The position numbers and the translations under genes were made by a program. From a virus (lineage: Duplodnaviria; Heunggongvirae; Uroviricota; Caudoviricetes): a stretch of DNA of 13,046 nt. This document shows, piece by piece, positions 1,084 through 13,046 of the stretch. The DNA lies in IMG/VR virus record IMGVR_UViG_2657244971_000003, one strand, 5' to 3'. Within the stretch, counting starts at the first letter, position 1. Each line of letters starts with the position of its first letter. The notes under the pieces are model-generated. The model saw nothing but the letters and a program-made list of their open reading frames with translations, did not search any database and was not told the origin of the DNA.

Positions 1084-1178
1084 TTTATCAGTTCGCTCCC
1101 ATCCGTACCAGTCCGCAAAATCCCCTGAATATCAAGCCTTCCGTAGATTAACAGTTCGTAATGGTTCGCGTCAGATCG

Positions 1179-1244
1179 TTGACAGCCGCACTCCATGACG
1201 GGTAAAAAGTGGATAAAATAATTTTACCCACCGGATTTTTACCC
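1179..1244 (+). promoter_or_regulatory. Putative intS promoter overlapped by a cluster of GGGTAAAA / TTTTACCC motif copies (candidate Int arm-type or RDF binding sites)
   Basis: Perfect TTGACA at 1179-1184. About 18 bp downstream is a weak -10-like TAAAAA (1203-1208) that sits inside GGGTAAAAA (1200-1208). A near copy GGATAAAAT (1211-1219) and two inverted copies TTTTACCC (1222-1229) and TTTTTACCC (1236-1244) end at the intS ATG. The same motif recurs at 9727-9747 beside the torI-like gene. Confidence 0.45.
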
Positions 1245-2393
1245 ATGCTCACCGTTAAGCAGATTGAAGCAGCAAAGCCGAAAGAAAAACCATACCGCCT
1301 ACTCGATGGTAATGGCCTGTACCTTTATGTCCCTGTGTCAGGGAAAAAGGTATGGCAGCTTCGCTACAAGATTGACGGTAAGGAGAAAATCCTGACCGTA
1401 GGAAAATATCCGCTAATGACTTTGCAGGAGGCAAGAGATAAAGCATGGACCGCGAGGAAAGACATCTCGGTTGGCATCGATCCGGTAAAAGCGAAAAAGG
1501 CTTCGTCTAACAACAATTCCTTTAGTGCCATTTACAAGGAATGGTACGAGCACAAGAAGCAAGTCTGGTCAGTAGGCTATGCAACTGAACTTGCCAAAAT
1601 GTTTGATGACGACATTTTACCCATCATCGGCGGTCTTGAGATTCAGGATATTGAGCCGATGCAACTGCTGGAAGTAATCCGCAGATTTGAAGATCGCGGT
1701 GCAATGGAGCGAGCCAACAAAGCCCGCAGAAGATGCGGCGAGGTTTTCCGTTACGCCATTGTCACTGGTAGGGCTAAATATAACCCGGCACCTGACCTTG
1801 CTGACGCCATGAAGGGATACCGCAAGAAAAACTTCCCGTTTCTTCCTGCAGACCAGATCCCGGCATTTAACAAAGCACTGGCAACATTTTCAGGAAGCAT
1901 CGTATCGCTCATTGCGACCAAAGTTTTACGCTACACAGCCCTAAGAACGAAAGAGCTTCGTTCCATGCAATGGAAGAACGTCGATTTTGAAAACAGGATT
2001 ATCACTATCGACGCCAGTGTGATGAAGGGACGCAAGATTCATGTTGTCCCGATGTCGGACCAGGTGGTTGAACTTCTCACTACGCTAAGCTCAATCACCA
2101 AACCAGTATCAGAGTTTGTTTTTGCCGGGCGCAACGATAAGAAGAAGCCAATCTGCGAGAACGCGGTGCTACTTGTGATCAAACAAATCGGCTATGAGGG
2201 TCTGGAAAGCGGTCACGGATTCAGGCATGAATTCAGCACGATTATGAACGAGCACGGCTGGCCTGCTGATGCTATAGAGGTTCAGCTAGCCCACGCGACC
2301 GGTGGATCTGTTCGCGGAATTTACAATCACGCACAGTACATGGAAAAACGCCGCGAGATGATGCAGTGGTGGGCTGATTGGGTTGATTTGTGA
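1245..2393 (+). CDS. intS: P4-family tyrosine integrase (IntS-like), 382 aa
   Basis: ATG at 1245, in frame within the tracked ORF 1209-2393 (which begins at a GTG). N-terminus MLTVKQIEAAKPKEKPYRLLDGNGLYLYV is typical of the P4-integrase arm-binding domain. C-terminal region has the tyrosine-recombinase signature (HGFRHEF ... RGIYNHAQY). Position directly downstream of argW matches the IntS arrangement. Confidence 0.85.
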   Translation: MLTVKQIEAAKPKEKPYRLLDGNGLYLYVPVSGKKVWQLRYKIDGKEKILTVGKYPLMTLQEARDKAWTARKDISVGIDPVKAKKASSNNNSFSAIYKEWYEHKKQVWSVGYATELAKMFDDDILPIIGGLEIQDIEPMQLLEVIRRFEDRGAMERANKARRRCGEVFRYAIVTGRAKYNPAPDLADAMKGYRKKNFPFLPADQIPAFNKALATFSGSIVSLIATKVLRYTALRTKELRSMQWKNVDFENRIITIDASVMKGRKIHVVPMSDQVVELLTTLSSITKPVSEFVFAGRNDKKKPICENAVLLVIKQIGYEGLESGHGFRHEFSTIMNEHGWPADAIEVQLAHATGGSVRGIYNHAQYMEKRREMMQWWADWVDL

Positions 2394-2398
2394 ACCAG

Positions 2399-4357
2399 TT
2401 AATTTCTCAAAATAATATTACCAGTGGAGACAAACGAGAATATGAAGTTCCCGCGCGGCGTTCCGCCACCGGATGTATTTTGCTTCGGAAAAACCTGGAT
2501 GGAACCGAGCGCTGACATCTGAAATGTAAATGCCGGGGTATCATTTGTTATTACACTATCCTCAATAAACGAAATAACAGAAATGTTACCTATAGTCCCA
2601 GCCGACCTTTTGTATAACAGCTCATATATTGCACACTTTGTCTTGCTTGAGTTGTAAACTTGGCATGTGATTTTACCTGCACAGGATGACGCCGCATCGT
2701 TATCACTGTACGTCCCAACACCGACAACAGTTTTTGCAATACCTGACTCAACACTAACGGCTAACTCATTAGATGACTGAGACGATAAATTGTTATATCT
2801 GTCAGTTGTCAGCTTTTGAGCTGTTGAAACATTATCGTCGAGGAGCCTGGAGGCTACTGAATCGGCCTTAATATGCACCCCGCGAGACTGGCAACGCCCA
2901 AAAACTGCTGCACCGCCAGCGATAGAGACGCCTTTATGCGGAATTGAGGACAGGTCAACGCTACCGAAGTATGTCCTGTTTCCGCCATCACCACCAACCC
3001 TCTCGTCTATATTTCCAGGAACGACCCCTGCATATACCGCGCCTGAACCCACATTAATATCTAATATGTTACGGGTTGGTTTCTCTGCTGAAATAGAACC
3101 ATCTGCAATAGTTATGTTAGCGTAAATATCAGATGTACTCTCTATTCTCACTGCACTTGACGGTTGCTGCTGCCCACAGAATGCTATTTGATTAGATCCT
3201 GATATATTTAATGCAGCAGCCTGCCGTATAAATATCGCCTCTCTTCCACCTTCAAAATAATTGTTCGCTCCACTTATGTTTACCCACGCTGCTTTATCTA
3301 CATACAAATGATTTGAATGCGTTTTTGTGTTTCTGTCGGAATGCATTAAGTTATCTGAATAAATAAGACCATCAAGCTGCTCTGCTATAAACCCACCGTA
3401 CCGAGTAAACCAACCACGATTATTAGTGAATTTAAAATCATTATAGGCATACGCATGAGCATTATCGTGTTTCAGCTCAACTAATTTCCCGACATTAATG
3501 GCTGTCATGTTATCGATAGTGATAAGGCCTATTGCGTGAAATGGTGTTGTTGCGTCTGCAATGCCTTTGATTGCACAATCAACTCGAGTTGCTTTGATGT
3601 TAATGAAATCTATAAACCTTCCCTTTTTCAGCTTAAACCCGTAGTCACCACCAGGGGCAGTAGATGTAATCCCTATACCGTCAATGGTTTTAAGGGCCTC
3701 CCCCCTGCCGTCATTAATGATAAATGACAAATCTTGCAGCCAGCCGCCGCCAACAATATCACACAGTCTAGTCACCTCAATTGAAGCGCCCCCAAATTTC
3801 AACACCCCGCTAATGCCTAAGATAACCCCTTCATCTGAACACTTATGAACTGCATCAAGCAGCTTTTGAGGATCATTAATCACAGAAAATGAAAGCCCGA
3901 AATCTCTTGCGTCAATAACGGCTCTGTTTTCCAGGGAGTCTTTTAGAGTTTTCCCTCCGCCAACGCCAATTAATGAGCCATCTCCTTTCTTTAACTCATC
4001 ACGGAATCGTATTTCAAACTGGTCTGGATCATATTTCAATACATTCGGAAAATAGAACTGCTGCGCACCATATGCATCATAAACAGCCATAGAATGGCCT
4101 TGCACAGTTACGAATTTGGCAATCTGCCCGTTATATACCGGATATCCAGCAGCATTGATAACAATTGGCTGAGAAACAGGGACGTGAGATCCGTCTTCAT
4201 TCTCTACATAAACCTGAATCTGGTTTTCAGTATTTACCGGGTCCGTGTCAATTTTACCGATATAAATTTTGCCATTGGCTACGGCTTTAAAAGAACGCGC
4301 CATAGTGAAGATTTGCGAAGGCATCGATATAATCACATTGGCTGTAATGTCTGTCAT
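2399..4357 (-). CDS. Podovirus tailspike protein: P22-gp9-like N-terminal head-binding domain fused to a divergent receptor-binding domain, 652 aa
   Basis: N-terminal ~120 aa ([42 protein letters not shown]...[13 protein letters not shown]...NVLKYDPDQ) closely resembles the P22 tailspike head-binding domain as I recall it. The rest is Gly/Asn/Ser-rich, as expected for a beta-helix. GGAG lies about 10 nt upstream of the ATG at 4357. Receptor specificity cannot be called from sequence. Confidence 0.85.
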
Positions 4358-4414
4358 TTAATTTGCTCCAGATACAAGGAATCACCGAAGCATGGCTACG
4401 GTGAATTTTGGGCA

Positions 4415-4439
4415 TAAAAAAACCCAGCCGAAGCTGGGT
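4415..4439 (-). terminator. Rho-independent terminator downstream of ant (minus strand)
   Basis: On the minus strand: GC-rich hairpin CCCAGC-TTCG-GCTGGG (plus-strand 4423-4438) followed by a run of 7 T (complement of the A-run at 4416-4422). Confidence 0.55.
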
Positions 4440-4457
4440 CGTTGCGTTGGTTATCTG

Positions 4458-5381
4458 TCAGTAGTTATGTACTGAAGGAGGTAATTCTTTATTCTTAAGT
4501 CTCATCCATGCGGAAAGATTCGTTGGTCCGTCTGGCTCATTAATATCAACATCTCGTGTGTGATTGATTAAAACGTCTCTCGCCATTCCGATAACATACG
4601 AGAACTCATGACCGTAGTCGTAGCATCTGCCTGAATAGTTCGATTGAATTTGTTTTAGCGCCGGATACAGTTCGCGGAATAATGCCTGTGAGCGGTTGGC
4701 ATAATCCCATAACCATACAAGGCTGTTTGCTTCTTTTGCAGAAAGCTCGTTTGCTTTCTTCTCTTGTTTGCCGATTAACTCGCCTTCAAGCGGAACGCGA
4801 GCTGCAAGTGACAGAGCTTCGGTAAACTGCTCATCGCTGATTTCTTTGTATGAACACCCAAAATGAGATTTCAGTGACGACCACATGGTAATCATTGCCT
4901 TCGCCTGTTTTTCTTTTGGCAGAGACTGACCGCGACTCATGACGAGTTGTTTAATGGCTTCCTGCTGTTCAGTGGTGATTTTACCCGGCAACGCCTTTTT
5001 AGCTTTGCGTGGGTTAACTACATGGCCTTTAGTCCAGTAGTCGTATAGCACATCGTCACACTCTTCTTGATACTGGATTACATTGTCGCGGATTTCAGGG
5101 CGGACTTTGTTAGGGCTGATGGTTTGCAACCAGCCATTCAGTTTACGTAAAGCAAGGCAAATCATGGTCTGCACACCGCCAACTGAAGGTATTGCGATTT
5201 CCACAATTCCTTTAGCAAATCTTTGTTTTAACTTTGTAAACTGTGAAGCCCAATCCATACCCATTCCCTCAACGATAGGTTTCATTGGGGTGTACGGTTC
5301 GCCGTTGTGATTGACAACATAAAGCTCTGCGCCGTGGAATGGCACGTTGATAGTAGATACTGCTGTTGCTATACTTTTCAT
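4458..5381 (-). CDS. ant: Phage antirepressor (Ant-like), 307 aa
   Basis: N-terminus [17 protein letters not shown]...[27 protein letters not shown] resembles antirepressor N-terminal domains as I recall them. It lies between an arc-like gene and the tailspike, the P22 immI order. AGGAAT lies about 8 nt upstream of the ATG at 5381. Confidence 0.8.
5347..5375 (+). promoter_or_regulatory. Candidate promoter for a sar-like antisense RNA, inside the first codons of ant on the opposite strand
   Basis: TTGATA (5347-5352), 17-bp spacer, TATACT (5370-5375). The predicted start near 5382 is immediately antisense to the ant start codon (5379-5381). Confidence 0.4.
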
Positions 5382-5456
5382 GTCGTTAATTCCTATGCGT
5401 GGTTTTACGATACCGAAGCCCTGACTGTTCCAGCAGTTGGGGCTTCAACTTTTTTG
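5382..5456 (+). ncRNA. Putative sar-like small antisense RNA (~75 nt) complementary to the ant ribosome-binding region
   Basis: Runs from the predicted start (~5382) across the complement of the ant Shine-Dalgarno and ends at a plus-strand terminator: extended imperfect hairpin GAAGCCCTGACTG / CAGTTGGGGCTTC (5415-5446) followed by TTTTTT (5450-5455). P22 has a short Sar antisense RNA at the analogous position. Predicted from motifs only. Confidence 0.4.
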
Positions 5457-5687
5457 TCCAGCTTGTCCGAGTAAAAATCCAGATACATGCTCTACTGACT
5501 GGTCAACCTCAATTTTTCTGCCAGAAGTTAATGTAATAAGCGCACAATCGTCACCTGTGCCCTCTACCAACTCAATGTTTTGGCGTCTTATGGTGTATGT
5601 CGTTTTGTTTTTTTCGAATCTAATCCGCCACCAATCACTTGTCCTTCTGCTTTCAAACTTTGTTTTAGTTAGGGTTATAAAGCTCAT
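5445..5687 (-). CDS. Hypothetical 80-aa protein inserted between arc and ant, translationally coupled to arc
   Basis: Its ATG (5685-5687) overlaps the arc-like stop TGA (5684-5686) as ATGA. No recognisable motif. Product MSFITLTKTKFESRRTSDWWRIRFEKNK... is basic at the N-terminus and acidic in the middle. Confidence 0.5.
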   Translation of the reverse strand: MSFITLTKTKFESRRTSDWWRIRFEKNKTTYTIRRQNIELVEGTGDDCALITLTSGRKIEVDQSVEHVSGFLLGQAGQKS

Positions 5688-5824
5688 ACCGTTATCCCCT
5701 CTCTCTTCAGGCTATCCATCACCCGTTTAATTACTTCTGCGCTAAATGAGCGACACTCTTCCTTTGCTTTCTCTTCAAGGATTTTTTCTAACTTCTCTGG
5801 CATACGCAGTGTTTTTACCTTCAT
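5684..5824 (-). CDS. arc: Arc-like ribbon-helix-helix repressor, 46 aa
   Basis: Hand-translated (below the 60-aa floor of the ORF track): MKVKTLRMPEKLEKILEEKAKEECRSFSAEVIKRVMDSLKREGITV. C-terminal half resembles the P22 Arc C-terminus (...QRVMESFKKEGRIGA). GGAGAA lies about 6 nt upstream of the ATG. It is divergent from a Mnt-like gene. Confidence 0.7.
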   Translation of the reverse strand: MKVKTLRMPEKLEKILEEKAKEECRSFSAEVIKRVMDSLKREGITV

Positions 5825-5929
5825 TGCATTCTCCGTTGTATGTGGTACGCATACATAGTATTTAGGTACGCATTGATAGTCAATAGATACCTACATATCC
5901 TGTGGTAAAAAATTATTCAGGATGTGCCG
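5825..5929. promoter_or_regulatory. Divergent immI-like promoter/operator region between arc and mnt
   Basis: A 105-bp gap between divergent RHH repressor genes. 9-bp direct repeats GGTACGCAT at 5844-5852 and 5865-5873 are spaced 21 bp apart. An imperfect inverted repeat TGTATG...CATACA lies around 5838-5856. TTGATA is at 5873-5878. Confidence 0.5.
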
Positions 5930-6181
5930 ATGTCTGATCGTAAGTACAAAAACCCTCAAGTGAATCTGAGGCTTCCTGTAGAGATAAAGGAACGTCTTAT
6001 TGAACTGGCTGAGGCTAATTCTCGTTCATTAAATGCTGAGATGGTCGCGGCACTTGAAGCGTGGACAGAAAAAAATAAACACATTCAAGCACTAGACCTT
6101 GCAACTATAGCATCACGATTGATAGATCTTGAACACGATGTTGAGACACTGAAAACCATGTATGGTAAGGATGCAAAATGA
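5930..6181 (+). CDS. mnt: Mnt-like ribbon-helix-helix repressor, 83 aa from the ATG
   Basis: The tracked ORF begins at GTG 5924, but the ATG at 5930 has AGGA 8 nt upstream. N-terminus (NLRLPVEIKERLIELAEANSRSLNAEMVAALEAW) follows the Arc/Mnt pattern. Orientation is divergent from arc-ant, as in P22 immI. Confidence 0.7.
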   Translation: MSDRKYKNPQVNLRLPVEIKERLIELAEANSRSLNAEMVAALEAWTEKNKHIQALDLATIASRLIDLEHDVETLKTMYGKDAK

Positions 6182-6387
6182 ATAAAAAACAGTTTATTAA
6201 GTCAAAAACGTCAAGCAAGGAAGAGCTAGAGAAAGAGCTAAACTCCCTGAAATATGCTCTGTGTCTGGTTTACTCAAGACTGCCAATGGAAGATAAAAAC
6301 GCCATTTACAATGAAATGATTAGCAGCCTTGATTTTAACGATAGAGACCTAGCATCCCACCTCAACAGCTTCCGCGTCCCTGAGTAA
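6178..6387 (+). CDS. Hypothetical 69-aa protein translationally coupled to mnt
   Basis: Its ATG (6178-6180) overlaps the mnt stop TGA (6179-6181) as ATGA. Lys/Glu-rich N-terminus. No recognisable motif. Confidence 0.5.
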   Translation: MNKKQFIKSKTSSKEELEKELNSLKYALCLVYSRLPMEDKNAIYNEMISSLDFNDRDLASHLNSFRVPE

Positions 6388-6547
6388 TTCTGTTGCGGAT
6401 TTGCTTCTTGCGGTGGTTTAGGCTGGAGAGCTTGGCTTCTGCTTCTGATATTTGCGCATCTAGATCTTTAAGCTCAAGATCTGAAAGTCGCTGGTCAAGC
6501 AGGGTTTGGTTCAACTCAATGTTGTTCAGGCGTTCTTCTATGGTCAT
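6362..6547 (-). CDS. Hypothetical small coiled-coil protein, 61 aa from ATG 6547 (tracked ORF extends to 6640)
   Basis: MTIEERLNNIELNQTLLDQRLSDLELKDLDAQISEAEAKL has a heptad-like Leu/Ile pattern. AGGA lies about 9 nt upstream of the ATG at 6545-6547. Its 3' end overlaps the preceding plus-strand ORF by 26 nt. It could be a chance ORF. Confidence 0.35.
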   Translation of the reverse strand: MTIEERLNNIELNQTLLDQRLSDLELKDLDAQISEAEAKLSSLNHRKKQIRNRITQGRGSC

Positions 6548-6578
6548 AACTTTCATCCTATAACTATTTGGAATTAAA

Positions 6579-6761
6579 ATGAAAAATATATTAATTGGTT
6601 TCGTTTTTGGTGCAGCCTGCGCCGCCAGCATTAGCGTCATAGCCGCTCAGATTGTTGGTGGTAACTCATATCTAATGGGCTATGACGTCATGATAAATGG
6701 AGAGGTTGTTTGCTCAGACCCTTATGTATGGACGTCGACAAAAGAAATAGAATGTGACTAA
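6579..6761 (+). CDS. Hypothetical small secreted protein or lipoprotein, 60 aa
   Basis: N-terminus [24 protein letters not shown] looks like a signal peptide with a possible lipobox-like Cys. Weak RBS. Same strand as mnt. Confidence 0.4.
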
Positions 6762-6814
6762 TACCAGCCTGATGGCTGGTTAATTTCGTCATGCTCAAAA
6801 CTAAGGAGGTTGGT

Positions 6815-7042
6815 GTGAAGCGATGGTTCCTCATAATTACTGTTTTCGCGATCATTTACACTATTTTCCCTGCATTAAAAGCACCAATGCAAATAATTTC
6901 ACTAGCAATAATTTCGATTGGTGCTTTCATTGCAGTAGCCGTACTTGTGTTTAAGGTTTTAAAGTTTTTAGTTTGGCTATCAAAAGATGATGGATGCAAA
7001 GTTCATCAAGAAAAAGAAGGCAAAATAACCAAAGTTGACTAA
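6815..7042 (+). CDS. Hypothetical small inner-membrane protein with two predicted transmembrane helices, 75 aa from GTG 6815
   Basis: AAGGAGG (6803-6809) lies 5 nt upstream of the in-frame GTG at 6815; the tracked ORF begins at ATG 6791 without an RBS. Two hydrophobic segments (WFLIITVFAIIYTIF and IISLAIISIGAFIAVAVLVF). Same strand as mnt, the position where P22-like phages carry exclusion genes. Confidence 0.5.
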   Translation: MKRWFLIITVFAIIYTIFPALKAPMQIISLAIISIGAFIAVAVLVFKVLKFLVWLSKDDGCKVHQEKEGKITKVD

Positions 7043-8718
7043 CTGTCACTAGCGAGCCATGTAATAATCCCCGTGCGGGCAATGGTTTTTGCTTCATCTG
7101 TTGATAAGGTTTTCTCCCATCTCTTAAATGCCCCAGATTGCATCAGTTTCCTTTCTATTGCGCGTCTCACTTCTGCTCTGTCTACTGGTGCGTTTTGCAG
7201 GCGAAATAGCATTGATTTAAACTCAGGAGAAGATAGCAGAGCATCAGCAGCCTTTATCCTGCTTGTTTTCCCTGACATCAATGCAGACGTTATCACCCCT
7301 GTTGCACCTACACCAGGGAGACCAGATAAGCTTGTAATACCTTCCGCCGCAGCAGCTTTTGAGGCTATTCCATAAATTTTTGCGAGACTACCCTTTTCTT
7401 TCAGAAAGTTATTAACTTGCTGATCCACAAGACTACTAGCATACTGCTTACCAGTATTGAGTCTATTCATAGCCTTAGCTGCTTGATAAATCGTATCAAG
7501 GCGCTTTGATGCATCTGTGCCAATAGCATCACGGAGAGCCTTCATATTGGCCCCATTGCGTGACATTCCGTTATACCATTTTACAAATCCATCAACTCCT
7601 AATTGCTGACCAGGTGATTTGGCATAGCTGGTAAATGCTTTATTCATTGAGGTGAGCGCAACTTCCTGCCGCATATCCTTTGGAATCGACTTCATTAATT
7701 GCCTAAAGTCGCCACCGTTTCCTTTTGCCATATTAACAACAGCACTTTCAACTTTTAGAATTGCTGATTGCTGAAGTTTTCTACCCAAGACGGTTACAGC
7801 ATCATCTTCAATGGATTTTCGTTTTTTTACCAACTCCTTACCAAGCGTCCATAATTCCCCTGCGCCATATTTTTCTGCGACAGCCTGTTGGTCATCTGTT
7901 ATGGCTGCATATAACTTTTTAAGAACACCTGTTTCTTCATCCTTGAATGGACCAGAGCCTTTGCCAATAGCTTGTCCAACCTGCTTTCTAGCGAGATCTA
8001 AACGCCCATACGTTGGCAAGGTGTTTGGATCAAGTCGGTTCAATGTCCGCTTCATTATTGGAGATAATTCATCAATTCCACCTATGTCATCAGCAAAATC
8101 CTCTAAAAAATTCAATGTATTAGTTGCCTCAATCCGGTCTCTTACAGGAACCTTTTCGGCAATTTTGTTGTAGATGTTATCTGACTGATTTTGTAATGAT
8201 GAAATGGTTTTATCAAAATTATCTGCAAGCCTGTCAGAAACCAGTTGCTTATCAAGGCTTCCCCCAAATGAAGTTATCATTTCATCAGCTTTTCTTCCTA
8301 ATTCAGTAATAAAACGCTTATGCGCCTCACTAATCTCTGTTCCAGGGAGACTTGCCACTGCATTATCAAGAGCCCTGACAGCAGGATTATTAGAGATCAT
8401 GCCTGGAGTGGCATAATTTTCCAGTTCTAGCTCACGAATAGCATTTATCGCGTTAAAATCAGGATTAACTTCATCGGCGAAATCTTGAATAGCTCGTTGC
8501 CCGCCGATAAATTTATTGTCCATTGCGCCAGTAGCTTTCTTTAACGTTGCTTTAGATGATTTACTACCCATCCCTACGGATGAGCGATAAATATCTCCGG
8601 CACTATTTTTAATTTTTCCTGCAATCTTCCCAAGCGCTGGACCAACAATCTCGGCTATCCGGTAACTCCGGATGGTTGGATAAGCTGTAGTGAGCAGATG
8701 CCTTCCGCAGGGGAACAA
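7039..8718 (-). CDS. P22 gp16-family DNA ejection/injection protein, probably 5'-truncated (possible pseudogene)
   Basis: Long, alpha-helix-rich, Ala/Lys-rich product. It sits upstream of the sieA/mnt-like region, where gene 16 lies in P22. The frame is open to 8718, where the tracked ORF begins at a TTG with no RBS; the first in-frame ATG (8569-8571) has only a weak RBS. Identity is from synteny and composition, not motif recognition. Confidence 0.55.
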   Translation of the reverse strand: MFPCGRHLLTTAYPTIRSYRIAEIVGPALGKIAGKIKNSAGDIYRSSVGMGSKSSKATLKKATGAMDNKFIGGQRAIQDFADEVNPDFNAINAIRELELENYATPGMISNNPAVRALDNAVASLPGTEISEAHKRFITELGRKADEMITSFGGSLDKQLVSDRLADNFDKTISSLQNQSDNIYNKIAEKVPVRDRIEATNTLNFLEDFADDIGGIDELSPIMKRTLNRLDPNTLPTYGRLDLARKQVGQAIGKGSGPFKDEETGVLKKLYAAITDDQQAVAEKYGAGELWTLGKELVKKRKSIEDDAVTVLGRKLQQSAILKVESAVVNMAKGNGGDFRQLMKSIPKDMRQEVALTSMNKAFTSYAKSPGQQLGVDGFVKWYNGMSRNGANMKALRDAIGTDASKRLDTIYQAAKAMNRLNTGKQYASSLVDQQVNNFLKEKGSLAKIYGIASKAAAAEGITSLSGLPGVGATGVITSALMSGKTSRIKAADALLSSPEFKSMLFRLQNAPVDRAEVRRAIERKLMQSGAFKRWEKTLSTDEAKTIARTGIITWLASDS

Positions 8719-8980
8719 GTGTTGGCGTACCGTCCAGACGCGCCGGAAAGTAATGATCCATTAATCAAGATGGCAACGTACGTTGGCGGGTCAGCACACG
8801 GACACGGCTTTGATTGCTACTGCAAGCCAACCCACTGGATGCCGCTGCCAGCAGCACCGCAGGAGGTGAACCGTGGCTAACCTGCAACTTGCCGTCAAAG
8901 GTGAATAACAATCCTCGCATTCGCGGGGATTTCTTTTATCTGAACTCGCTACGGCGGGTTTTGTTTTATGGAGATGATAA

Positions 8981-9148
8981 ATGCACTTTCGAGTCACAGG
9001 TGAATGGAATGGAGAGCCATTCAACAGGGTTATCGAAGCAGAGGACATCAACGACTGCTATAACCACTGGATGCTATGGGCGCAGATAGCACATGCAGAC
9101 GTAACCAATATTCGAATTGAAGAACTGAAAGAACACCAAGCCGCCTGA
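8981..9148 (+). CDS. Hypothetical 55-aa protein
   Basis: Hand-translated (below the ORF track floor): MHFRVTGEWNGEPFNRVIEAEDINDCYNHWMLWAQIAHADVTNIRIEELKEHQAA. GGAG lies 7 nt upstream of the ATG and a strong terminator follows directly. Confidence 0.5.
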   Translation: MHFRVTGEWNGEPFNRVIEAEDINDCYNHWMLWAQIAHADVTNIRIEELKEHQAA

Positions 9149-9161
9149 TGGCGGTTTTTTT
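9141..9161 (+). terminator. Rho-independent terminator
   Basis: CCGCC-TGAT-GGCGG hairpin followed by 7 T. The stop codon of the 55-aa ORF sits in the loop. Confidence 0.6.
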
Positions 9162-9172
9162 GGGGGTAGTAG

Positions 9173-9388
9173 ATGGCTGCAATTCACATTGTCTCAATAA
9201 TATGCAATGCAATTCAGATAGTTGCTTGCATTATCTTTGTTTTCTCAATTCTTCGCTCCCGACGATATTCTCCAGCAATTAACCGACATCCTGCACAGGT
9301 TGAAGCCGTCAGGATGGCTATAGAGTTACGAAATGAGATGAATAAGGCATTAATGGAGATGGAGAAACCATTCACTGACAAACATTAA
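9173..9388 (+). CDS. Hypothetical 71-aa protein with hydrophobic N-terminus
   Basis: ORF has an ATG start and a G-rich stretch upstream. N-terminal 25 residues are hydrophobic. No other support. Confidence 0.3.
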   Translation: MAAIHIVSIICNAIQIVACIIFVFSILRSRRYSPAINRHPAQVEAVRMAIELRNEMNKALMEMEKPFTDKH

Positions 9389-9466
9389 GAGTGGAAATAA
9401 AGAAATCACCCCGCCTCACACTCGATGAGGCATTTTCATTTATCAAGATATACAGACCTACCATCG

Positions 9467-9486
9467 CCGCATCAATGCGGTTTTTT
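9467..9486 (+). terminator. Putative rho-independent terminator just left of the 16-nt argW repeat
   Basis: CCGCA-TCAA-TGCGG hairpin followed by TTTTTT. Confidence 0.45.
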
Positions 9487-9496
9487 ATTGCCTGAT

Positions 9497-9512
9497 TTGC
9501 AGGTTCGATTCC
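9497..9512 (+). repeat. 16-nt direct repeat of the argW T-arm (TTGCAGGTTCGATTCC), candidate att core or att relic
   Basis: Exact 16/16 identity with 1054-1069 inside argW; flanking bases differ. The downstream sequence does not complete a T-stem, so it is not a tRNA. Confidence 0.6.
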
Positions 9513-9531
9513 CTATTCGGAGATAGCACTC

Positions 9532-9732
9532 ATGCAACACGAACTACAGCCTGATTCACTGGTTGATTTGAAATTCATCATGGCCGATACTGGCTTCGGT
9601 AAAACCTTCATCTACGACCGGATTAAGTCCGGCGACCTGCCAAAAGCCAAAGTTATCCACGGGCGAGCAAGATGGTTATATCGTGACCATTGTGAATTCA
9701 AAAATAAGCTCTTAAGCCGCGCTAATGGGTAA
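9532..9732 (+). CDS. torI: Excisionase / recombination directionality factor (TorI-like), 66 aa
   Basis: MQHELQPDSLVDLKFIMADTGFGKTFIYDRIKSGDLPKAKVIHGRARWLYRDHCEFKNKLLSRANG matches my recollection of E. coli TorI, the KplE1 excisionase. GGAGA lies about 8 nt upstream. The symbol is recalled, not searched. Confidence 0.7.
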   Translation: MQHELQPDSLVDLKFIMADTGFGKTFIYDRIKSGDLPKAKVIHGRARWLYRDHCEFKNKLLSRANG

Positions 9733-9747
9733 AATAGCGGGTAAAAT
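9727..9747 (+). promoter_or_regulatory. Tandem GGGTAAAAT motif copies near the right att site
   Basis: GGGTAAAAT at 9727-9735 and 9739-9747, overlapping the torI stop. The same motif clusters in front of intS at 1200-1244. Confidence 0.4.
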
Positions 9748-9805
9748 ATTTTTCACATCTAAAAAACACCATTCCAATCAATCCCCTGCTGCTTCAAGTA
9801 GATGT

Positions 9806-9818
9806 CTGCAGGGGACAC
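9806..9818 (+). repeat. 13-nt direct repeat of the argW 3' end (CTGCAGGGGACAC), candidate attR core of element A and relic attL of element B
   Basis: Exact 13/13 identity with 1069-1081. An 8-bp inverted partner TCCCCTGC sits at 9782-9789. Together with the 16-nt repeat it reconstitutes the argW 3' half (1054-1081), interrupted by about 293 bp that carry torI. Confidence 0.55.
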
Positions 9819-9932
9819 TTTAAAGACCTTTCTCTACATTTCACTTCATTACATAACCACTTAACAAAACAGTAAGTTATCACCGAATCGGCCTGATTTT
9901 CATTTCAGTTAATTTCATGACATTACAACCTC

Positions 9933-11309: not shown

Positions 11310-12191
11310 ATGCAGCATTCAACAGAGAATGAAACTATATTCTTAGGAAATCTATGGATTGACAAAAAAATACCACCATTAGAATATTGTTCATTTGAAC
11401 GCGCTTCAAGACTATTAGAATGCGAGATTGATGATTTATTACATCTATACGAAATAGGCGCTTTTAATATCGCATTCAAGGCGAATGGACTTGCAGTTAG
11501 ATTTAATGTTAATTTCCTCAATAAAAATCAGAAAATGGAAATTGACTTAATTCATCCCGTATTAACTAATCAATCACTAGAGATGGAATTTTCAACAATA
11601 TGGTATGACCTTAAAGATGATTCCTTTGAACATTTTGAAAATGGGCTTCAAATTATAGGATTTGCCTGTGGTATTTGGTACGCCGATGATATGATAAGTG
11701 ACATAAAAAATGGATTAGCTATAGATCCAGATTATGAATTCAGGCTTAAACCGGTAAAAATACGAGATAATGTTTTGATGGCAACGGCCTCATATGAAGG
11801 AAATAAGGTCATTGAGATTCCATTTGAAGATCTTCTTATCATGCGAAGAGATTTAGAGTTAATATGGAAATCAGTAAAAACTGGAATTCCTATGCCAAGT
11901 TTACTTACGAAAAGAATTTCATCTGAACCTAAAATCCCCAAGCGATTAAATAACACTGCTGAGCATCATGCAAAAAATAGGGAGGGGTTATTAAATGCAG
12001 CCATATATATATTAGCAAAATACCCAAGCGAATGTCGTGGTGAAAGAAAAGAGATAAGTCCTGAAAAGTGGACTAACGCCATAATTAAACATTTAGGAGA
12101 GCTACCTCCAATATTTATCACTAATGAACAAGAAATCTTAAGAAAATTACGATTAGCGGTTAATCATGCGGGATTAAAACAAAAGGGGTAG
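11310..12191 (+). CDS. Hypothetical 293-aa protein, strongly AT-rich, no recognisable domain; candidate accessory cargo
   Basis: Long ORF with a good RBS and its own promoter. It is visibly more AT-rich than the flanking integrase and alpA-like genes (judged by eye, not computed). I found no Walker A, clear nuclease or HTH signature by eye. Confidence 0.65.
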   Translation: MQHSTENETIFLGNLWIDKKIPPLEYCSFERASRLLECEIDDLLHLYEIGAFNIAFKANGLAVRFNVNFLNKNQKMEIDLIHPVLTNQSLEMEFSTIWYDLKDDSFEHFENGLQIIGFACGIWYADDMISDIKNGLAIDPDYEFRLKPVKIRDNVLMATASYEGNKVIEIPFEDLLIMRRDLELIWKSVKTGIPMPSLLTKRISSEPKIPKRLNNTAEHHAKNREGLLNAAIYILAKYPSECRGERKEISPEKWTNAIIKHLGELPPIFITNEQEILRKLRLAVNHAGLKQKG

Positions 12192-12293
12192 ACTGAAACA
12201 ATCTACAGGTAGAGTTGATTACACTACCTTCACAGCATTTTGATATCCCCATAGTATCTGCCGTGTTCATTACATAATACGGCAGGTAATTTC

Positions 12294-12509
12294 ATGACAT
12301 TAAAAACTTATCCTATCACTGGACATGCCCGCCCACGAGCTACTGCTGACTTTTTGCAAATAAGTACGGTTACTCTCTGGCGCTGGGAAAAGAACAATCC
12401 TGAATTTCCCAAATCTATACGCATTTCAAAACGGGTATCTGTTTACGATGCACAAGAAATTAGGCAGTGGGTTAAAGCTCAATCAGCAGGATTGGAGGAA
12501 GTAGTGTAA
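12294..12509 (+). CDS. AlpA-family phage regulatory protein / excisionase-like HTH protein, 71 aa
   Basis: ISTVTLWRWEKNNPEFPKSIRISKRVSVYDAQEIRQWV fits the AlpA/Xis-like winged-helix pattern. A hairpin CTGCCGT...ACGGCAG (12258-12285) lies just upstream. Confidence 0.65.
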   Translation: MTLKTYPITGHARPRATADFLQISTVTLWRWEKNNPEFPKSIRISKRVSVYDAQEIRQWVKAQSAGLEEVV

Positions 12510-12558
12510 TGACAATATTAACAAAGCTGGGGAGAAAAAAGCCTCCCCAACGTATTAA

Positions 12559-12753
12559 TCAATTCTTTGGTTCTAAACCTCGGCTTTGTAACTCTTTGCG
12601 TAGAATGCGCTTGATCCAAGCCGCTAGCGATTCATCGCCATCCTGCTGTTGTGCTTGTTCCATCAGTTCACGCAGTTCAGGGTCAAGTCGGAACTGGAAT
12701 GGCGGATTCCCACGTCTTTCATTTTTGTGTGTTGACACGTCAATTACACCCAT
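12559..12753 (-). CDS. Hypothetical small DNA-binding protein, possibly ribbon-helix-helix, 64 aa
   Basis: FQFRLDPELRELMEQA...SLAAWIKRILRKEL has a strand-helix-helix-like pattern. No clear RBS. It is divergent from the Icd-like ORF across an inverted-repeat region. Confidence 0.4.
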   Translation of the reverse strand: MGVIDVSTHKNERRGNPPFQFRLDPELRELMEQAQQQDGDESLAAWIKRILRKELQSRGLEPKN

Positions 12754-12766
12754 TGTAATGTATTTA

Positions 12767-12787
12767 TGTGTAATGACACATTACACA
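12767..12787. promoter_or_regulatory. Inverted repeat TGTGTAATG-ACA-CATTACACA, candidate operator
   Basis: 9-bp arms are perfect reverse complements with a 3-bp spacer. Related ATTACA/TGTAAT motifs occur at about 12741-12760, 12215-12222 and 12268-12275. Confidence 0.4.
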
Positions 12788-12869
12788 CAGAAAAACAAAA
12801 TAGCAACGCCCCGGAGTGTTTGCAGCAGCACCGAGGCGTCTGACCAGCACGTTATATGAGGTAACGAAG

Positions 12870-13046
12870 ATGGCTAAACAGAAGTGTACCTGGTTATTTG
12901 CGGCGATCAACCGCAGTCAACGCAATGCCCGTCCTGTGATGTTAAGGATCACCGCTGATAACGAACGATCAGCGCGGCGCAGACTTGCCCCGGACTATGT
13001 ACTGAGCTTTGCCGGGCGCATTCCCTGCGGAGGTGAACATGCGTAA
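12870..13046 (+). CDS. Small Icd-like protein (tentative), 58 aa
   Basis: ATG 12870 with GAGGT 7 nt upstream; the tracked ORF begins further upstream at 12816. MAKQKCTWLFAAINRSQRNARPVMLRITADNERSARRRLAPDYVLSFAGRIPC resembles my recollection of Icd-like small proteins in P4-family islands. The functional label is weak. Confidence 0.45.
   Translation: MAKQKCTWLFAAINRSQRNARPVMLRITADNERSARRRLAPDYVLSFAGRIPCGGEHA

What the first reader, a model, noticed from the sequence alone, without database searches (positions are those of the whole stretch)
12559..13046. Divergent small-gene pair (RHH-like and Icd-like) around a perfect inverted repeat and recurring ATTACA motifs
A 64-aa RHH-like ORF and a 58-aa Icd-like ORF face away from each other across 12754-12869. 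That gap holds the inverted repeat TGTGTAATG-ACA-CATTACACA, and related ATTACA motifs also occur upstream of the alpA-like gene. This looks like a compact regulatory switch for the island, possibly coupling a small repressor to a cell-division inhibitor. The minus-strand ORF has no obvious RBS, so the pairing is tentative.
Basis: partly seen in the sequence, partly recalled or inferred. Interest (0 to 1): 0.4.

Follow-up and report, generated by a model that had tools for sequence, protein, structure and literature searches.

The report
Satellite switch: small repressor plus antisense RNA
The two small genes and the inverted repeat form the on/off control region of a P4-like phage satellite in E. 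coli, and the gap between them also encodes a strongly conserved antisense RNA that I could not find described anywhere, so this may be the repression module long missing for many Gram-negative phage satellites.

Summary
The 58-aa ORF is a true Icd/Kil-family gene and the minus-strand ORF folds as a ribbon-helix-helix (RHH) protein. The 9-3-9 inverted repeat is at 12767-12787. One correction: the RHH gene's conserved start is GTG 12738 (59 aa), not ATG 12753.

The locus is the early-control region of a P4-like satellite at tRNA-Arg. It lacks P4's IsrK/C4 RNA immunity.

Comparison of about 80 genomic loci shows a portable cassette with three parts:
- An RHH gene whose sequence class co-varies with paired operator boxes.
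- Predicted face-to-face promoters, including a perfect TTGACA on the early strand formed by the complement of the RHH start codon.
It has an invariant TAnnnT -10, an anti-SD loop and an intrinsic terminator. Covariation is strong (97% paired, 134 compensatory cells) and there is no Rfam match.

Most likely mechanism: the RHH represses early transcription, and the sar-like antisense RNA blocks icd translation and so expression of the replication operon downstream. RHH and Icd are not a toxin-antidote pair. No function was tested experimentally.

The parts
12559..12738 (-). RHH (ribbon-helix-helix) putative repressor gene, 59 aa from the conserved GTG start. The annotated or first-reader start ATG 12753 gives 64 aa.
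12526..12551 (-). Hairpin plus T-run terminator of the RHH gene, lying between RHH and alpA
   Evidence: Terminator-like site (L001 14352-14327, which is window +1801). The T-run is on the minus strand only (sequence).
12732..12761 (+). Predicted early promoter: -35 TTGACA 12732-12737 (the complement of the RHH start TGTCAA), -10 TGTAAT 12754-59 or TAATGT 12756-61, inferred start site about 12767
   Evidence: PWM scan. TTGACA is perfect in 68 of 70 loci, and TAnnnT lies 16-18 nt downstream in 67 of 70, against about 8% by chance. No experimental start site.
12743..12759 (.). Proximal operator: ATTACA-N5-TGTAAT, overlapping the early -10 and spacer and the RHH leader
   Evidence: Boxes listed. 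Conserved in loci with class-A RHH, and replaced by other paired repeats in other RHH classes.
12767..12787 (.). It lies at about +1 to +20 of the early transcript and over the RHH -10.
   Evidence: I19. Conserved with RHH class A. Some loci carry the 14-bp palindrome TGTGTAATTACACA instead. Class B loci carry GGTAATTACC twice, 30-31 bp apart, only in this intergenic region.
12778..12806 (-). Predicted RHH promoter: -35 TTGCTA 12806-12801 (right after the terminator stem), -10 TAATGT 12783-12778 (inside the inverted repeat), inferred start about 12771
   Evidence: TTGnnn plus TAnnnT at 16-18 nt in 58 of 70 loci. TTG after the stem is invariant or nearly so in alignment A3.
12793..12875 (-). 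Conserved structured antisense RNA (sar-like), about 80 nt. Start site is the invariant A at 12875. Helix 1 is 12874-71 with 12846-43. Helix 2 is 12866-62 with 12854-50, with the anti-SD CCUC in its loop. The terminator stem-loop is 12840-12805 and the U-run is 12804-12790.
   Evidence: Alignment of 72 loci. 97.2% of cells paired, 14 pairs with changes on both sides, 134 compensatory cells, 0 of 500 shuffles, slid controls 36-50%. Strand test: 97.2% paired on the minus strand against 82.8% on the plus strand. Alifold -24.1 against -4.9 kcal/mol, and 224 G-U pairs against 5 A-C. Covariance model R1 finds it in 9 held-out loci and in Pmp7 and in viral contigs. No Rfam family matches here.
12883..12910 (-). 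Promoter of the antisense RNA, embedded in icd codons 5-14: -10 TACACT 12888-12883, -35 TTGATC 12910-12905
   Evidence: T, A and T of TAnnnT are invariant in 72 of 72 sequences, although the overlapping codon encodes C, H or S. PWM score 10.3.
12858..12861 (+). Shine-Dalgarno GAGG of the icd-like gene, complementary to the antisense RNA loop
   Evidence: Sequence; alignment.
12870..13046 (+). Icd/Kil-family gene (58 aa), first cistron of the early operon. Its stop overlaps the ATG of the next gene (13039).
   Evidence: NF033153 84 bits. 54% identity to the P4 kil region 8329-8192. The P4 Kil ORF scores 76 bits and P1 Icd 52.6 bits on the same model. Downstream genes (hyp119, hyp94, DUF5375, alpha primase, sid/psu, delta) are seen in L001.
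12294..12509 (+). alpA/vis-type gene (context). It is on the same strand as the early operon and convergent with RHH.
   Evidence: PF05930 31.6 bits; annotation.

Best explanation
Window 12526-13046 is the immunity and early-control cassette of a P4-like satellite integrated at tRNA-Arg. It acts in two layers.

Layer 1, transcription. The 59-aa ribbon-helix-helix protein (12738-12559, minus strand) binds two 17-bp operators made of TGTAAT/ATTACA boxes. The proximal operator is 12743-12759. They bracket the -10 and start site of the early promoter, whose -35 TTGACA is the complement of the RHH start codon region. They also cover the RHH promoter, which faces the early promoter. The RHH therefore represses the early operon and regulates its own synthesis.

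Layer 2, translation. A constitutively promoted RNA of about 80 nt is made from the minus strand (12875 to about 12793). It is fully complementary to the early leader, presents an anti-Shine-Dalgarno CCUC in a hairpin loop, covers the icd AUG, and ends in an intrinsic terminator. Pairing blocks translation of the Icd/Kil-like first cistron. By loss of coupling and by polarity, it also reduces expression of the primase operon downstream.

This cassette takes the place that the IsrK(seqA)-C4(CI) RNA module holds in P4.

Shown here: folds, family memberships, RNA covariation and strand, conservation of promoter hexamers, and co-variation of operator with RHH class.
Inferred: DNA binding by the RHH, start sites, the effect of the RNA on translation, and how a helper phage or AlpA read-through lifts repression.
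For: Satellite context: int, alpA, alpha primase, sid/psu and delta are present.

RHH protein: RHH fold.

Icd/Kil gene:
- Family membership and 54% identity to the P4 kil region.
- P4 IsrK and C4 are found in the P4 control but are absent here.

Architecture: the layout is conserved in about 80 loci across Enterobacterales, Orbales, Pasteurellales and Oceanisphaera.

Operators follow the RHH class, not the neighbouring genes:
- The same early operon (Icd 95-100%, primase 98-99%) pairs with a class-B RHH and GGTAATTACC boxes in L063, L068 and L055.
- The same class-A RHH and boxes pair with AlpA-type or Vis-type excisionases and with different first genes.

Promoters: hexamers are conserved in 67-68 of 70 loci.

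Antisense RNA:
- Invariant TAnnnT and +1 A, strong covariation, G-U strand asymmetry and a U-run only on the minus strand.
- The covariance model recovers held-out loci at 67-82 bits, and viral contigs found without using the RHH. Eight of the nine high-scoring complete viral-contig hits (L110, L115, L118, L119, L128, L142, L144, L150) plainly carry an RHH-like ORF downstream and an Icd-like gene opposite. The ninth (L091) carries the RHH-like stretch at the end of a longer listed ORF.

Precedents:
- P1 C4 RNA represses icd-ant translation at sites next to the icd RBS (record annotation).
- P4 CI RNA controls kil/eta (PMC10111431; PMC4825925).
- P22 immI uses two RHH repressors plus the sar antisense RNA (PMC2629481).
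Against: - No experiment or transcriptome was available, so the RNA, the start sites and RHH-DNA binding are predictions.
- The single-sequence fold z-score is modest (-2.2).
- The two class-A operators have opposite arm polarity (ATTACA-N5-TGTAAT against TGTAAT-N5-ATTACA), so the real recognition unit is unclear.
- The RHH promoter consensus is met in only 58 of 70 loci.
- The minus-strand RNA lies directly upstream of the RHH gene on the same strand, so it could also serve as a leader or attenuator for RHH.
- A second, lineage-limited early promoter candidate (-35 ATGACA 12773, -10 CAAAAT 12796) would give a shorter leader.
- Sequence-level searches do not place the RHH in a curated family (Pfam none; NF041551 below cut-off).
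Confidence: 0.65

Rival explanations
1. One reading: the RHH and the Icd-like protein are a functional pair (repressor or antidote plus cell-division toxin, like a toxin-antitoxin system), and the inverted repeat is their shared autoregulatory operator.
Against: - The genes are divergent, not co-transcribed.
- The RHH cassette also heads operons that start with a primase or other proteins.
- Icd-like genes occur without any RHH behind IsrK/C4 in about 24% of E. coli genomes.
- The Icd-like gene is followed by the whole replication operon with overlapping stop and start.
- The RHH has no extra C-terminal toxin-binding segment beyond about 10 residues.
Confidence: 0.07
2. The inverted repeat and the ATTACA boxes are binding sites for AlpA/Vis (or for the integrase), forming a regulon that links int, alpA and the early promoter, as Vis does in P4. 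The RHH would then be incidental.
For: CATTACA also occurs upstream of int (9847, 9921), upstream of alpA (12268) and at the alpA stop (12505), an enrichment of 9 against 2.27 expected. The int and alpA upstream regions share exact 12-mer and 16-mer blocks. AlpA activates PICI genes in EcCICFT073 (PMC6092414).
Against: - In other loci with the same RHH class the boxes stay in the RHH-early gap. This holds whether the excisionase is AlpA-type (86% or 64% identity) or Vis-type.
- CATTACA is not found consistently near their int or alpA genes.
- Loci with a different RHH class carry different boxes.
- The alpA-upstream copy lies in a hairpin loop, and the int-upstream copy follows the integrase type.
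Confidence: 0.1
3. The conserved hairpins are a structured 5' leader of the plus-strand early mRNA (for stability or ribosome access), or only a leader or attenuator of the RHH mRNA. They are not an independent antisense regulator.
For: The plus-strand complement can also fold (-21.2 kcal/mol). The element lies in the early leader and directly upstream of the RHH gene on the minus strand. No transcript data exist.
Against: - Plus-strand reading: 224 G-U pairs would become A-C mismatches (97.2% against 82.8% paired, alifold -24.1 against -4.9). The U-run follows the stem only on the minus strand.
- Independent transcription is supported: an invariant TAnnnT with an invariant A 8 nt downstream sits on the minus strand inside the coding region, across variable codons.
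- The attenuator variant is not excluded, but a separate RHH promoter is predicted after the terminator in 58 of 70 loci.
Confidence: 0.15

Closest known systems
Phage P22 immI region (Mnt and Arc RHH repressors plus sar antisense RNA controlling ant)
   Same: - An RHH repressor gene faces the regulated operon across operators that overlap the promoters.
- A short antisense RNA starts at the 5' end of the target gene, carries an anti-SD loop and ends in a terminator.
- A real P22-type copy (Ant 4458-5381, sar 5383-5450, Arc/Mnt-like 5924-6181) lies in this same window for comparison.
- My RNA model gives a weak cross-hit on that sar (21 bits).
- The system is described in PMC2629481.
   Different: - The Rfam sar model does not match this RNA.
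- The RHH has no Arc Pfam hit.
- The regulated gene is an Icd/Kil-family gene heading a primase operon, not an antirepressor.
- There is a single RHH rather than Mnt plus Arc.
- The host element is a satellite, not a phage.
Satellite P4 immunity (PLE leader with seqA/IsrK-like RNA, CI/C4 RNA, seqC, kil/eta)
   Same: - The position in the element is the same, between the alpA/vis gene and the alpha primase operon.
- The first gene is homologous (54% identity to P4 Kil).
- The logic is the same: an antisense RNA prevents expression of the first cistron and so of the replication genes (PMC4825925; PMC10111431).
   Different: - There is no C4 and no IsrK RNA here, although both are found in the P4 control.
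- The RNA is cis-encoded on the opposite strand rather than processed from the sense leader.
- A protein repressor gene with operators is present.
- There is no Eta N-terminal extension.
- My RNA model finds nothing in P4.
Phage P1 immI (C1 operator, c4 RNA, icd, ant)
   Same: An Icd-family first gene (P1 Icd 52.6 bits and this ORF 84 bits on NF033153). Its translation is blocked by an antisense RNA pairing next to the RBS, and it is coupled to the next gene (P1 record annotation).
   Different: - There is no pairwise similarity to P1 Icd.
- The RNA belongs to a different family and comes from the opposite strand.
- The downstream genes are replication genes, not an antirepressor.
Stl/Rpr master repressors of Gram-positive PICIs
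   Same: A repressor gene transcribed opposite to the excision and replication operon of a satellite, at the int-proximal side (PMC6092414).
   Different: - Stl/Rpr are larger, mostly HTH proteins with helper-protein-binding domains, whereas this is a minimal 59-aa RHH.
- No antisense RNA is described for them.
[quoted passage not shown]
Arc/Mnt/CopG/omega-type RHH operators
   Same: Short boxes one helical turn apart (6-bp boxes, 11 bp centre to centre) arranged as paired sites, as expected for binding by a dimer of dimers. Each RHH class has its own operator sequence.
   Different: Binding was not tested. The arm polarity differs between the two sites, and stoichiometry is unknown.

Membership tests
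Ribbon-helix-helix (Arc/MetJ/CopG) superfamily | Beta-strand, helix, helix fold of about 45 residues | tested here: met
Ribbon-helix-helix (Arc/MetJ/CopG) superfamily | Dimer that inserts a two-stranded sheet into the major groove and binds repeated operator boxes | not testable with these tools
   Only indirect support: class-specific paired repeats next to the gene.
YlcI/YnfO family (NF041551) | Score at or above the curated cut-off (30 bits) | tested here: not met
   20.7 bits, E 3e-4. Some RefSeq records still use this name. Best treated as a distant relative.
Icd-like (NF033153, host cell division inhibitor Icd-like) | Score at or above the curated cut-off (25 bits), with the reference proteins in the same model | tested here: met
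   Window ORF 84 bits, P4 Kil ORF 76 bits, P1 Icd 52.6 bits. Pairwise BLASTP against P1 Icd finds nothing. tblastn against P4 gives 54% identity.
Icd-like (NF033153) | Inhibits cell division or kills on expression | not testable with these tools
   Known only for P1 Icd and P4 Kil (record note; PMC10111431).
P4-type RNA immunity (IsrK/seqA plus C4/CI) | C4 and IsrK covariance-model matches upstream of the kil homologue | tested here: not met
   No match in the window or L001 at gathering threshold or at E<=5. Positive control in P4: C4 74.9 bits and isrK 60.8 bits.
sar RNA (RF00262) | Match to the Rfam model | tested here: not met
   No sar match at 12793-12875, while a true sar is found at 5383-5450 (81 bits). 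Only the geometry is shared, plus a weak reciprocal hit of my model on sar (21 bits).
P4-like satellite | int, alpA/vis, alpha primase, sid/psu and delta in one island at a tRNA | tested here: met
   Full element seen in the near-identical locus L001, 99.9% identical over 12200-13046. The window itself ends at the icd stop codon.
Type II toxin-antitoxin pair | Antitoxin and toxin co-transcribed and co-inherited | tested here: not met
   The genes are divergent. The RHH occurs without Icd-like and Icd-like occurs without the RHH.

The most novel reading that the evidence does not exclude
The RHH gene, its operators, the face-to-face promoters and the sar-like antisense RNA form one portable immunity cassette. 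It would be the missing master-repression module of many Gram-negative satellites (P4-like elements lacking C4, PICIs, capsid-forming PICIs) and would be interchangeable with the IsrK/C4 RNA module. The antisense promoter is written into the first ~14 codons of whatever gene follows, which is why Icd-like proteins and Xenorhabdus primases share the N-terminus MAxxQHTQTRPKFT. The cassette would therefore recombine in frame with different early operons. RHH-class and operator swaps would set immunity specificity between co-resident satellites.
Probability: 0.45. Interest if true: 0.75.

Novelty: new variant of a known kind. Interest (0 to 1): 0.62.

Why it matters
How Gram-negative phage satellites stay silent is only partly known. 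P4 uses the CI RNA. For PICIs, the founding paper states that a global repressor is unclear and that AlpA is an activator (PMC6092414).

A conserved RHH plus antisense-RNA cassette at the head of the replication operon gives concrete candidates to test for repression, immunity specificity and helper-triggered induction. It is present in roughly 4% of complete E. coli genomes in this sequence class alone, and it spans Enterobacterales, Orbales, Pasteurellales and Oceanisphaera.

It also adds a structured RNA family that has no Rfam match. And it shows that Icd/Kil-family genes are guarded by an antisense RNA at their RBS in three unrelated ways: P1 c4, P4 CI, and this cis-antisense RNA.

Tried and rejected
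- Rfam at gathering threshold and at E<=5 found no family at the locus. The only nearby hit was traJ_5 on the plus strand at E 2.7, judged chance.
- The idea that the RHH controls int and alpA through CATTACA boxes was rejected as a general feature. Class-B palindromes occur only in the RHH-early gap, and class-A loci lack consistent boxes near int or alpA.
- The simple promoter scan's plus-strand candidate (ATGACA 12773 / CAAAAT 12796) was demoted, because only a few lineages keep it. TTGACA at the RHH start is nearly universal.
- The minus-strand candidate TACAAT 12757-12752 was dropped, because it would exclude the conserved SD-like GGGTG and it decays to TACAAC or TACATC in close relatives.
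- I expected Pasteurella Pmp7, which gave no RHH tblastn hit, to use C4. It does not. It has the antisense RNA (73 bits) followed by a different RHH-like ORF.
- Literature searches for YlcI/YnfO/DUF3950, RHH with satellites, PICI with antisense RNA, and sequence strings of the RNA found no description.
- Forti 1999 and Sabbattini 1995 are not held. Statements about P4 therefore rest on PMC10111431, PMC4825925 and PMC3632133.
- Lower-scoring covariance-model hits (36-58 bits) in GC-rich viral contigs, upstream of HNH-like genes, were not followed up and may be unrelated.
Full report
**1. Where the window comes from**

The last 847 bases are 99.9% identical to chromosomal loci in many E. coli strains. 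In strain PD4 the same sequence continues into a complete P4-like satellite next to tRNA-Arg. Its gene order is integrase, a 293-aa hypothetical, alpA, a small minus-strand gene, an Icd-like gene, two hypotheticals, DUF5375, a TOPRIM/DUF927 alpha-type primase, two Psu/Sid-like genes, an Ogr/Delta gene and two cargo genes.

In the window, the tRNA-Arg (1009-1083) is separated from this satellite by a P22-like prophage remnant. The tRNA 3' core CTGCAGGGGACAC is repeated at 9806-9818, just before the satellite's int.

**2. Check of the observation**

- Both ORFs exist at the stated coordinates.
- The perfect 9-3-9 inverted repeat is at 12767-12787.
- The plus-strand ORF is a solid member of NCBIfam NF033153 'Icd-like' (84 bits, cut-off 25).
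- It is 54% identical to the stretch of phage P4 (8329-8192) that lies downstream of the CI RNA, inside the old 'cI ORF'. The 65-aa P4 ORF starting MATTLTPSHPEF scores 76 bits on the same model, and P1 Icd scores 52.6 bits. BLASTP between the window ORF and P1 Icd finds nothing.
- PMC10111431 describes P4 Kil as a truncated form of Eta with a cell-killing function, translated on terminator read-through. The window ORF is therefore the Kil homologue.
- The minus-strand ORF has no Pfam hit and only a sub-threshold YlcI/YnfO hit.

**3. The start codon**

Of 102 database homologues, most are 59 aa and begin MSTHKNERRG. In loci whose protein is 89-98% identical, the position of ATG 12753 reads ACG or TCG, while GTG/ATG-TCA-A at 12738 is kept. 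The conserved start is therefore GTG 12738, with GGGTG 8 nt upstream.

**4. Comparative set**

A scan of one genome per species with the RHH alignment gave 80 loci. They come from Escherichia/Shigella, Citrobacter, Klebsiella, Enterobacter, Pantoea, Erwinia, Serratia, Yersinia, Xenorhabdus, Photorhabdus, Providencia, Gilliamella/Frischella, Pasteurella, Oceanisphaera and others.

A tblastn map shows one recurring layout. A primase operon runs one way and the RHH gene runs the other way. An alpA/vis gene lies convergent to the RHH, followed by an integrase. Two Pasteurella capsid-forming PICI-type elements, Pmp8 and Pmp7, have the same module.

**5. No P4-type RNA immunity here**

Rfam finds C4 (74.9 bits) and isrK (60.8 bits) in P4 itself. 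It finds neither in the window nor in the full E. coli element, at gathering threshold or at E<=5. Published work treats IsrK/C4 (seqA/CI) as the P4-like immunity system (PMC3632133; PMC4825925). This satellite must be controlled differently.

**6. The missed element: a structured antisense RNA**

The 190 nt upstream of the RHH gene align across all loci at a fixed geometry. Read on the window's minus strand, the features are, in order:

- An invariant TAnnnT (TACACT, 12888-12883).
- An invariant A eight bases later (12875).
- The complement of the icd start codon.
- A 5-bp helix (CGUUA/UAACG, which co-varies to CAUUA/UAAUG, UCUUA/UAAGA, CGAUA/UAUCG and CGUAA/UUACG). Its loop carries CCUC, the anti-Shine-Dalgarno sequence.
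- An outer helix GCCA/UGGU.
- A conserved GGUnAGA.
- A 10-13-bp GC-rich stem-loop followed by UUG and a U-run.

On 70 distinct sequences:

- 97.2% of cells are paired.
- 14 of 21 pairs show changes on both sides, giving 134 compensatory cells.
- No shuffle out of 500 reaches these values.
- Slid controls pair at only 36-50%.

The strand is clear:

- 224 G-U pairs occur against 5 A-C.
- RNAalifold gives -24.1 kcal/mol on the minus strand against -4.9 on the plus strand.
- Pairing is 97.2% on the minus strand against 82.8% on the plus strand.
- The U-run follows the stem only on the minus strand.

The invariant -10 lies inside codons 5-7 of the first gene, where the amino acids vary (K/Q, C/H/S, T/N). 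The conservation is therefore at the DNA level.

A covariance model built from the alignment gave these results:

- It recovers nine RHH loci that were left out (24-82 bits, eight of them at 37 bits or more). It also recovers Pmp7 at 73 bits.
- It finds nothing in P4.
- It finds 25 IMG/VR contigs that were collected with a loose DNA pattern only.
- Nine of those hits were both high-scoring and complete. Eight plainly have an RHH-like small ORF just downstream and an Icd-like gene opposite. In the ninth (L091) the RHH-like stretch sits at the end of a longer listed ORF.

In the window the RNA would run from 12875 to about 12795, roughly 80 nt (fold). That covers the icd AUG, the SD (GAGG, 12858-12861) and the whole leader.

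**7. Promoters and operators**

A PWM scan and a tally over 70 loci show three things:

- The complement of the RHH start (TGTCAA) is a perfect TTGACA on the early strand in 68 of 70 loci.
- A TAnnnT follows at 16-18 nt in 67 of 70, against about 8% expected by chance.
- On the RHH strand, the nearly invariant TTG right after the terminator stem is followed by TAnnnT at 16-18 nt in 58 of 70.

In the window this gives:

- An early promoter with -35 at 12732-37, -10 at 12754-61 and start near 12767, firing rightwards.
- An RHH promoter with -35 at 12806-01, -10 at 12783-78 and start near 12771, firing leftwards.

These are face-to-face promoters whose start sites are a few bases apart. A second pair of the same hexamers (ATTACA-N5-TGTAAT, 12743-12759) covers the early spacer and -10. 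All of this rests on consensus matches, not on measured start sites.

**8. Who binds the boxes**

The repeats change with the RHH class:

- Class A (RRGNPPFQFRLD, the window's class) has TGTAAT/ATTACA boxes. In some loci these form the palindrome TGTGTAATTACACA.
- Class B (KRSPQYQMRL) has ATGGTAATTACCAT twice, 30-31 bp apart, and nowhere else in 12 kb.
- Further classes have TGTAATTACA, GGTATATACC, GTGTCAGACAC or GTCATACAC-type pairs.

In each class, one copy abuts the RHH start and the -35, and the other sits at the start sites.

Natural swaps separate the candidates:

- L063, L068 and L055 carry the window's early operon (Icd 95-100% in L063 and L068, 71% in L055; primase 90-99%). They have a class-B RHH and class-B boxes. 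The similarity breaks at the icd RBS.
- Class-A RHH and boxes are found with AlpA-type (86% or 64% identity) or Vis-type excisionases, and with different first genes.

The RHH is therefore the best candidate for the binding protein, and AlpA is not.

The extra CATTACA copies near int and alpA in the window are real. One sits in the loop of a conserved hairpin that sequesters the alpA SD (12258-12285). Another follows the integrase type. I do not count them as part of the switch.

**9. Mechanism proposed**

- The RHH represses the early promoter and its own promoter through the two operators.
- The antisense RNA pairs with the early leader and blocks ribosome entry at icd.
- The icd stop overlaps the next start codon (13039-13046), and the primase operon follows. 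Loss of icd translation should therefore lower expression downstream.
- This parallels P1, where C4 represses icd-ant translation and icd is needed for ant expression (record notes). It also parallels P4 (PMC10111431).
- The hairpin between alpA and the RHH has a T-run only on the minus strand. Transcription from alpA, which is on the same strand as the early operon, may therefore read through. That would run antisense to the RHH gene and sense into the early genes. This offers a route for AlpA- or helper-driven induction, but it is inference only.

**10. Comparison with known systems, and novelty**

- The closest architecture is P22 immI: Mnt and Arc (both RHH) plus sar RNA (PMC2629481). A copy lies in this very window, with Ant at 4458-5381, sar at 5383-5450 and an Arc/Mnt-like gene at 5924-6181.
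- The RNA here does not match the Rfam sar model. My model touches sar only weakly (21 bits).
- The closest homologous context is P4, whose IsrK/C4 module is replaced here.
- In complete E. coli genomes, the class-A cassette covers at least 80% of a 337-nt query in 197 of 5426 genomes. The P4 IsrK-C4 region does so in 1311.
- I found no paper describing this RHH or this RNA in satellites. A 2026 survey merely lists 'YlcI/YnfO' and 'Icd' as accessory genes of cf-PICIs. Fillol-Salom et al. state that a global repressor of Gram-negative PICIs is unclear.
- I rate it a new variant of a known kind: an immunity region built from familiar part types, but with a structured RNA family absent from Rfam 15 and from the literature I could search, and with a previously unassigned role for the RHH.

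**11. Limits**

- Nothing here measures transcription, binding or phenotype.
- The operator grammar is unresolved, because the arm polarity differs between the two sites.
- The minus-strand RNA could double as a leader or attenuator for the RHH gene.
- Family membership suggests that the Icd-like protein inhibits division, but this was not tested.

Noticed in passing
window 1084-9806: A P22-like prophage remnant is inserted in tandem at the same tRNA-Arg. It carries an integrase (1209-2393), a tailspike head-binding domain (2399-4357, minus), a P22-type antirepressor Ant (4458-5381, minus), sar RNA (5383-5450, plus; 81 bits) and an Arc/Mnt-like RHH (5924-6181). The tRNA 3' core CTGCAGGGGACAC is repeated at 9806-9818, ahead of the satellite.
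   Followed up: partly
window 9846-9857 and 12265-12276; 9911-9926 and 12287-12302: The regions upstream of int and of alpA share two exact blocks, TTCATTACATAA and TAATTTCATGACATTA. The second block contains the alpA start codon, and upstream of int it opens a 31-codon ORF. TTTCATGACATTACA upstream of int is conserved in L005 and L009. This may be a shared promoter or regulator site, or a duplication.
   Followed up: partly
window 12258-12285: A conserved hairpin (CTGCCGT...ACGGCAG) lies just upstream of the alpA ATG. Its 3' arm includes the likely SD (GCAGGT). It is also present in L009. This suggests translational control of alpA. A weak RybB-like Rfam hit here (E 0.57) is probably caused by this hairpin.
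   Followed up: no
window 11310-12191: A 293-aa ORF lies between int and alpA with no Pfam or NCBIfam match. Relatives occur at the same position in L009 (67%) and L074 (31%). It may be cargo or a defence gene.
   Followed up: no
L021-L027, L045-L061 (Xenorhabdus/Photorhabdus), L106: In these loci the first gene after the cassette is a 500-924-aa primase that begins MADTQHNQTRPKFT. This is the same N-terminus as many Icd-like proteins, because that stretch of DNA encodes the antisense RNA promoter. The cassette boundary therefore lies inside the ORF.
   Followed up: partly
L029, L038 5766-6177; L070 2450-2814; L059 6001-6465: Some loci carry two RHH genes in tandem. In L029, L038 and L070 the covariance model places the antisense RNA upstream of the first RHH gene.
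   Followed up: no
L084 (Pasteurella Pmp7) 4646-5032: The annotated 224-aa 'transcriptional repressor' ORF on the minus strand (4435-5109) is probably over-extended. The locus has the antisense RNA (4646-4730, plus) and a 59-aa RHH-like ORF (4854-5032, plus: MATGNKNNKSLKKGIRFPHELIQQIDRAVE...). That ORF is of a class not detected by tblastn with the window protein.
   Followed up: partly
L086, L097, L107-L109, L114, L117, L121, L137, L139, L147, L157, L159, L161, L162 (IMG/VR contigs): Lower-scoring matches of the RNA model (36-58 bits, GC 0.46-0.61, mostly about 0.55) lie opposite other first genes. Seven of these genes carry an HNH-like '...HRLAWLYVHG...' motif. No RHH-like ORF lies downstream. 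These may be a related antisense RNA class or false positives.
   Followed up: no
L003 7939-8004 and L084 7069-7135: Both Pasteurella elements match the Rfam int-alpA RNA motif (46 and 43 bits). No such match exists in the E. coli window.
   Followed up: no
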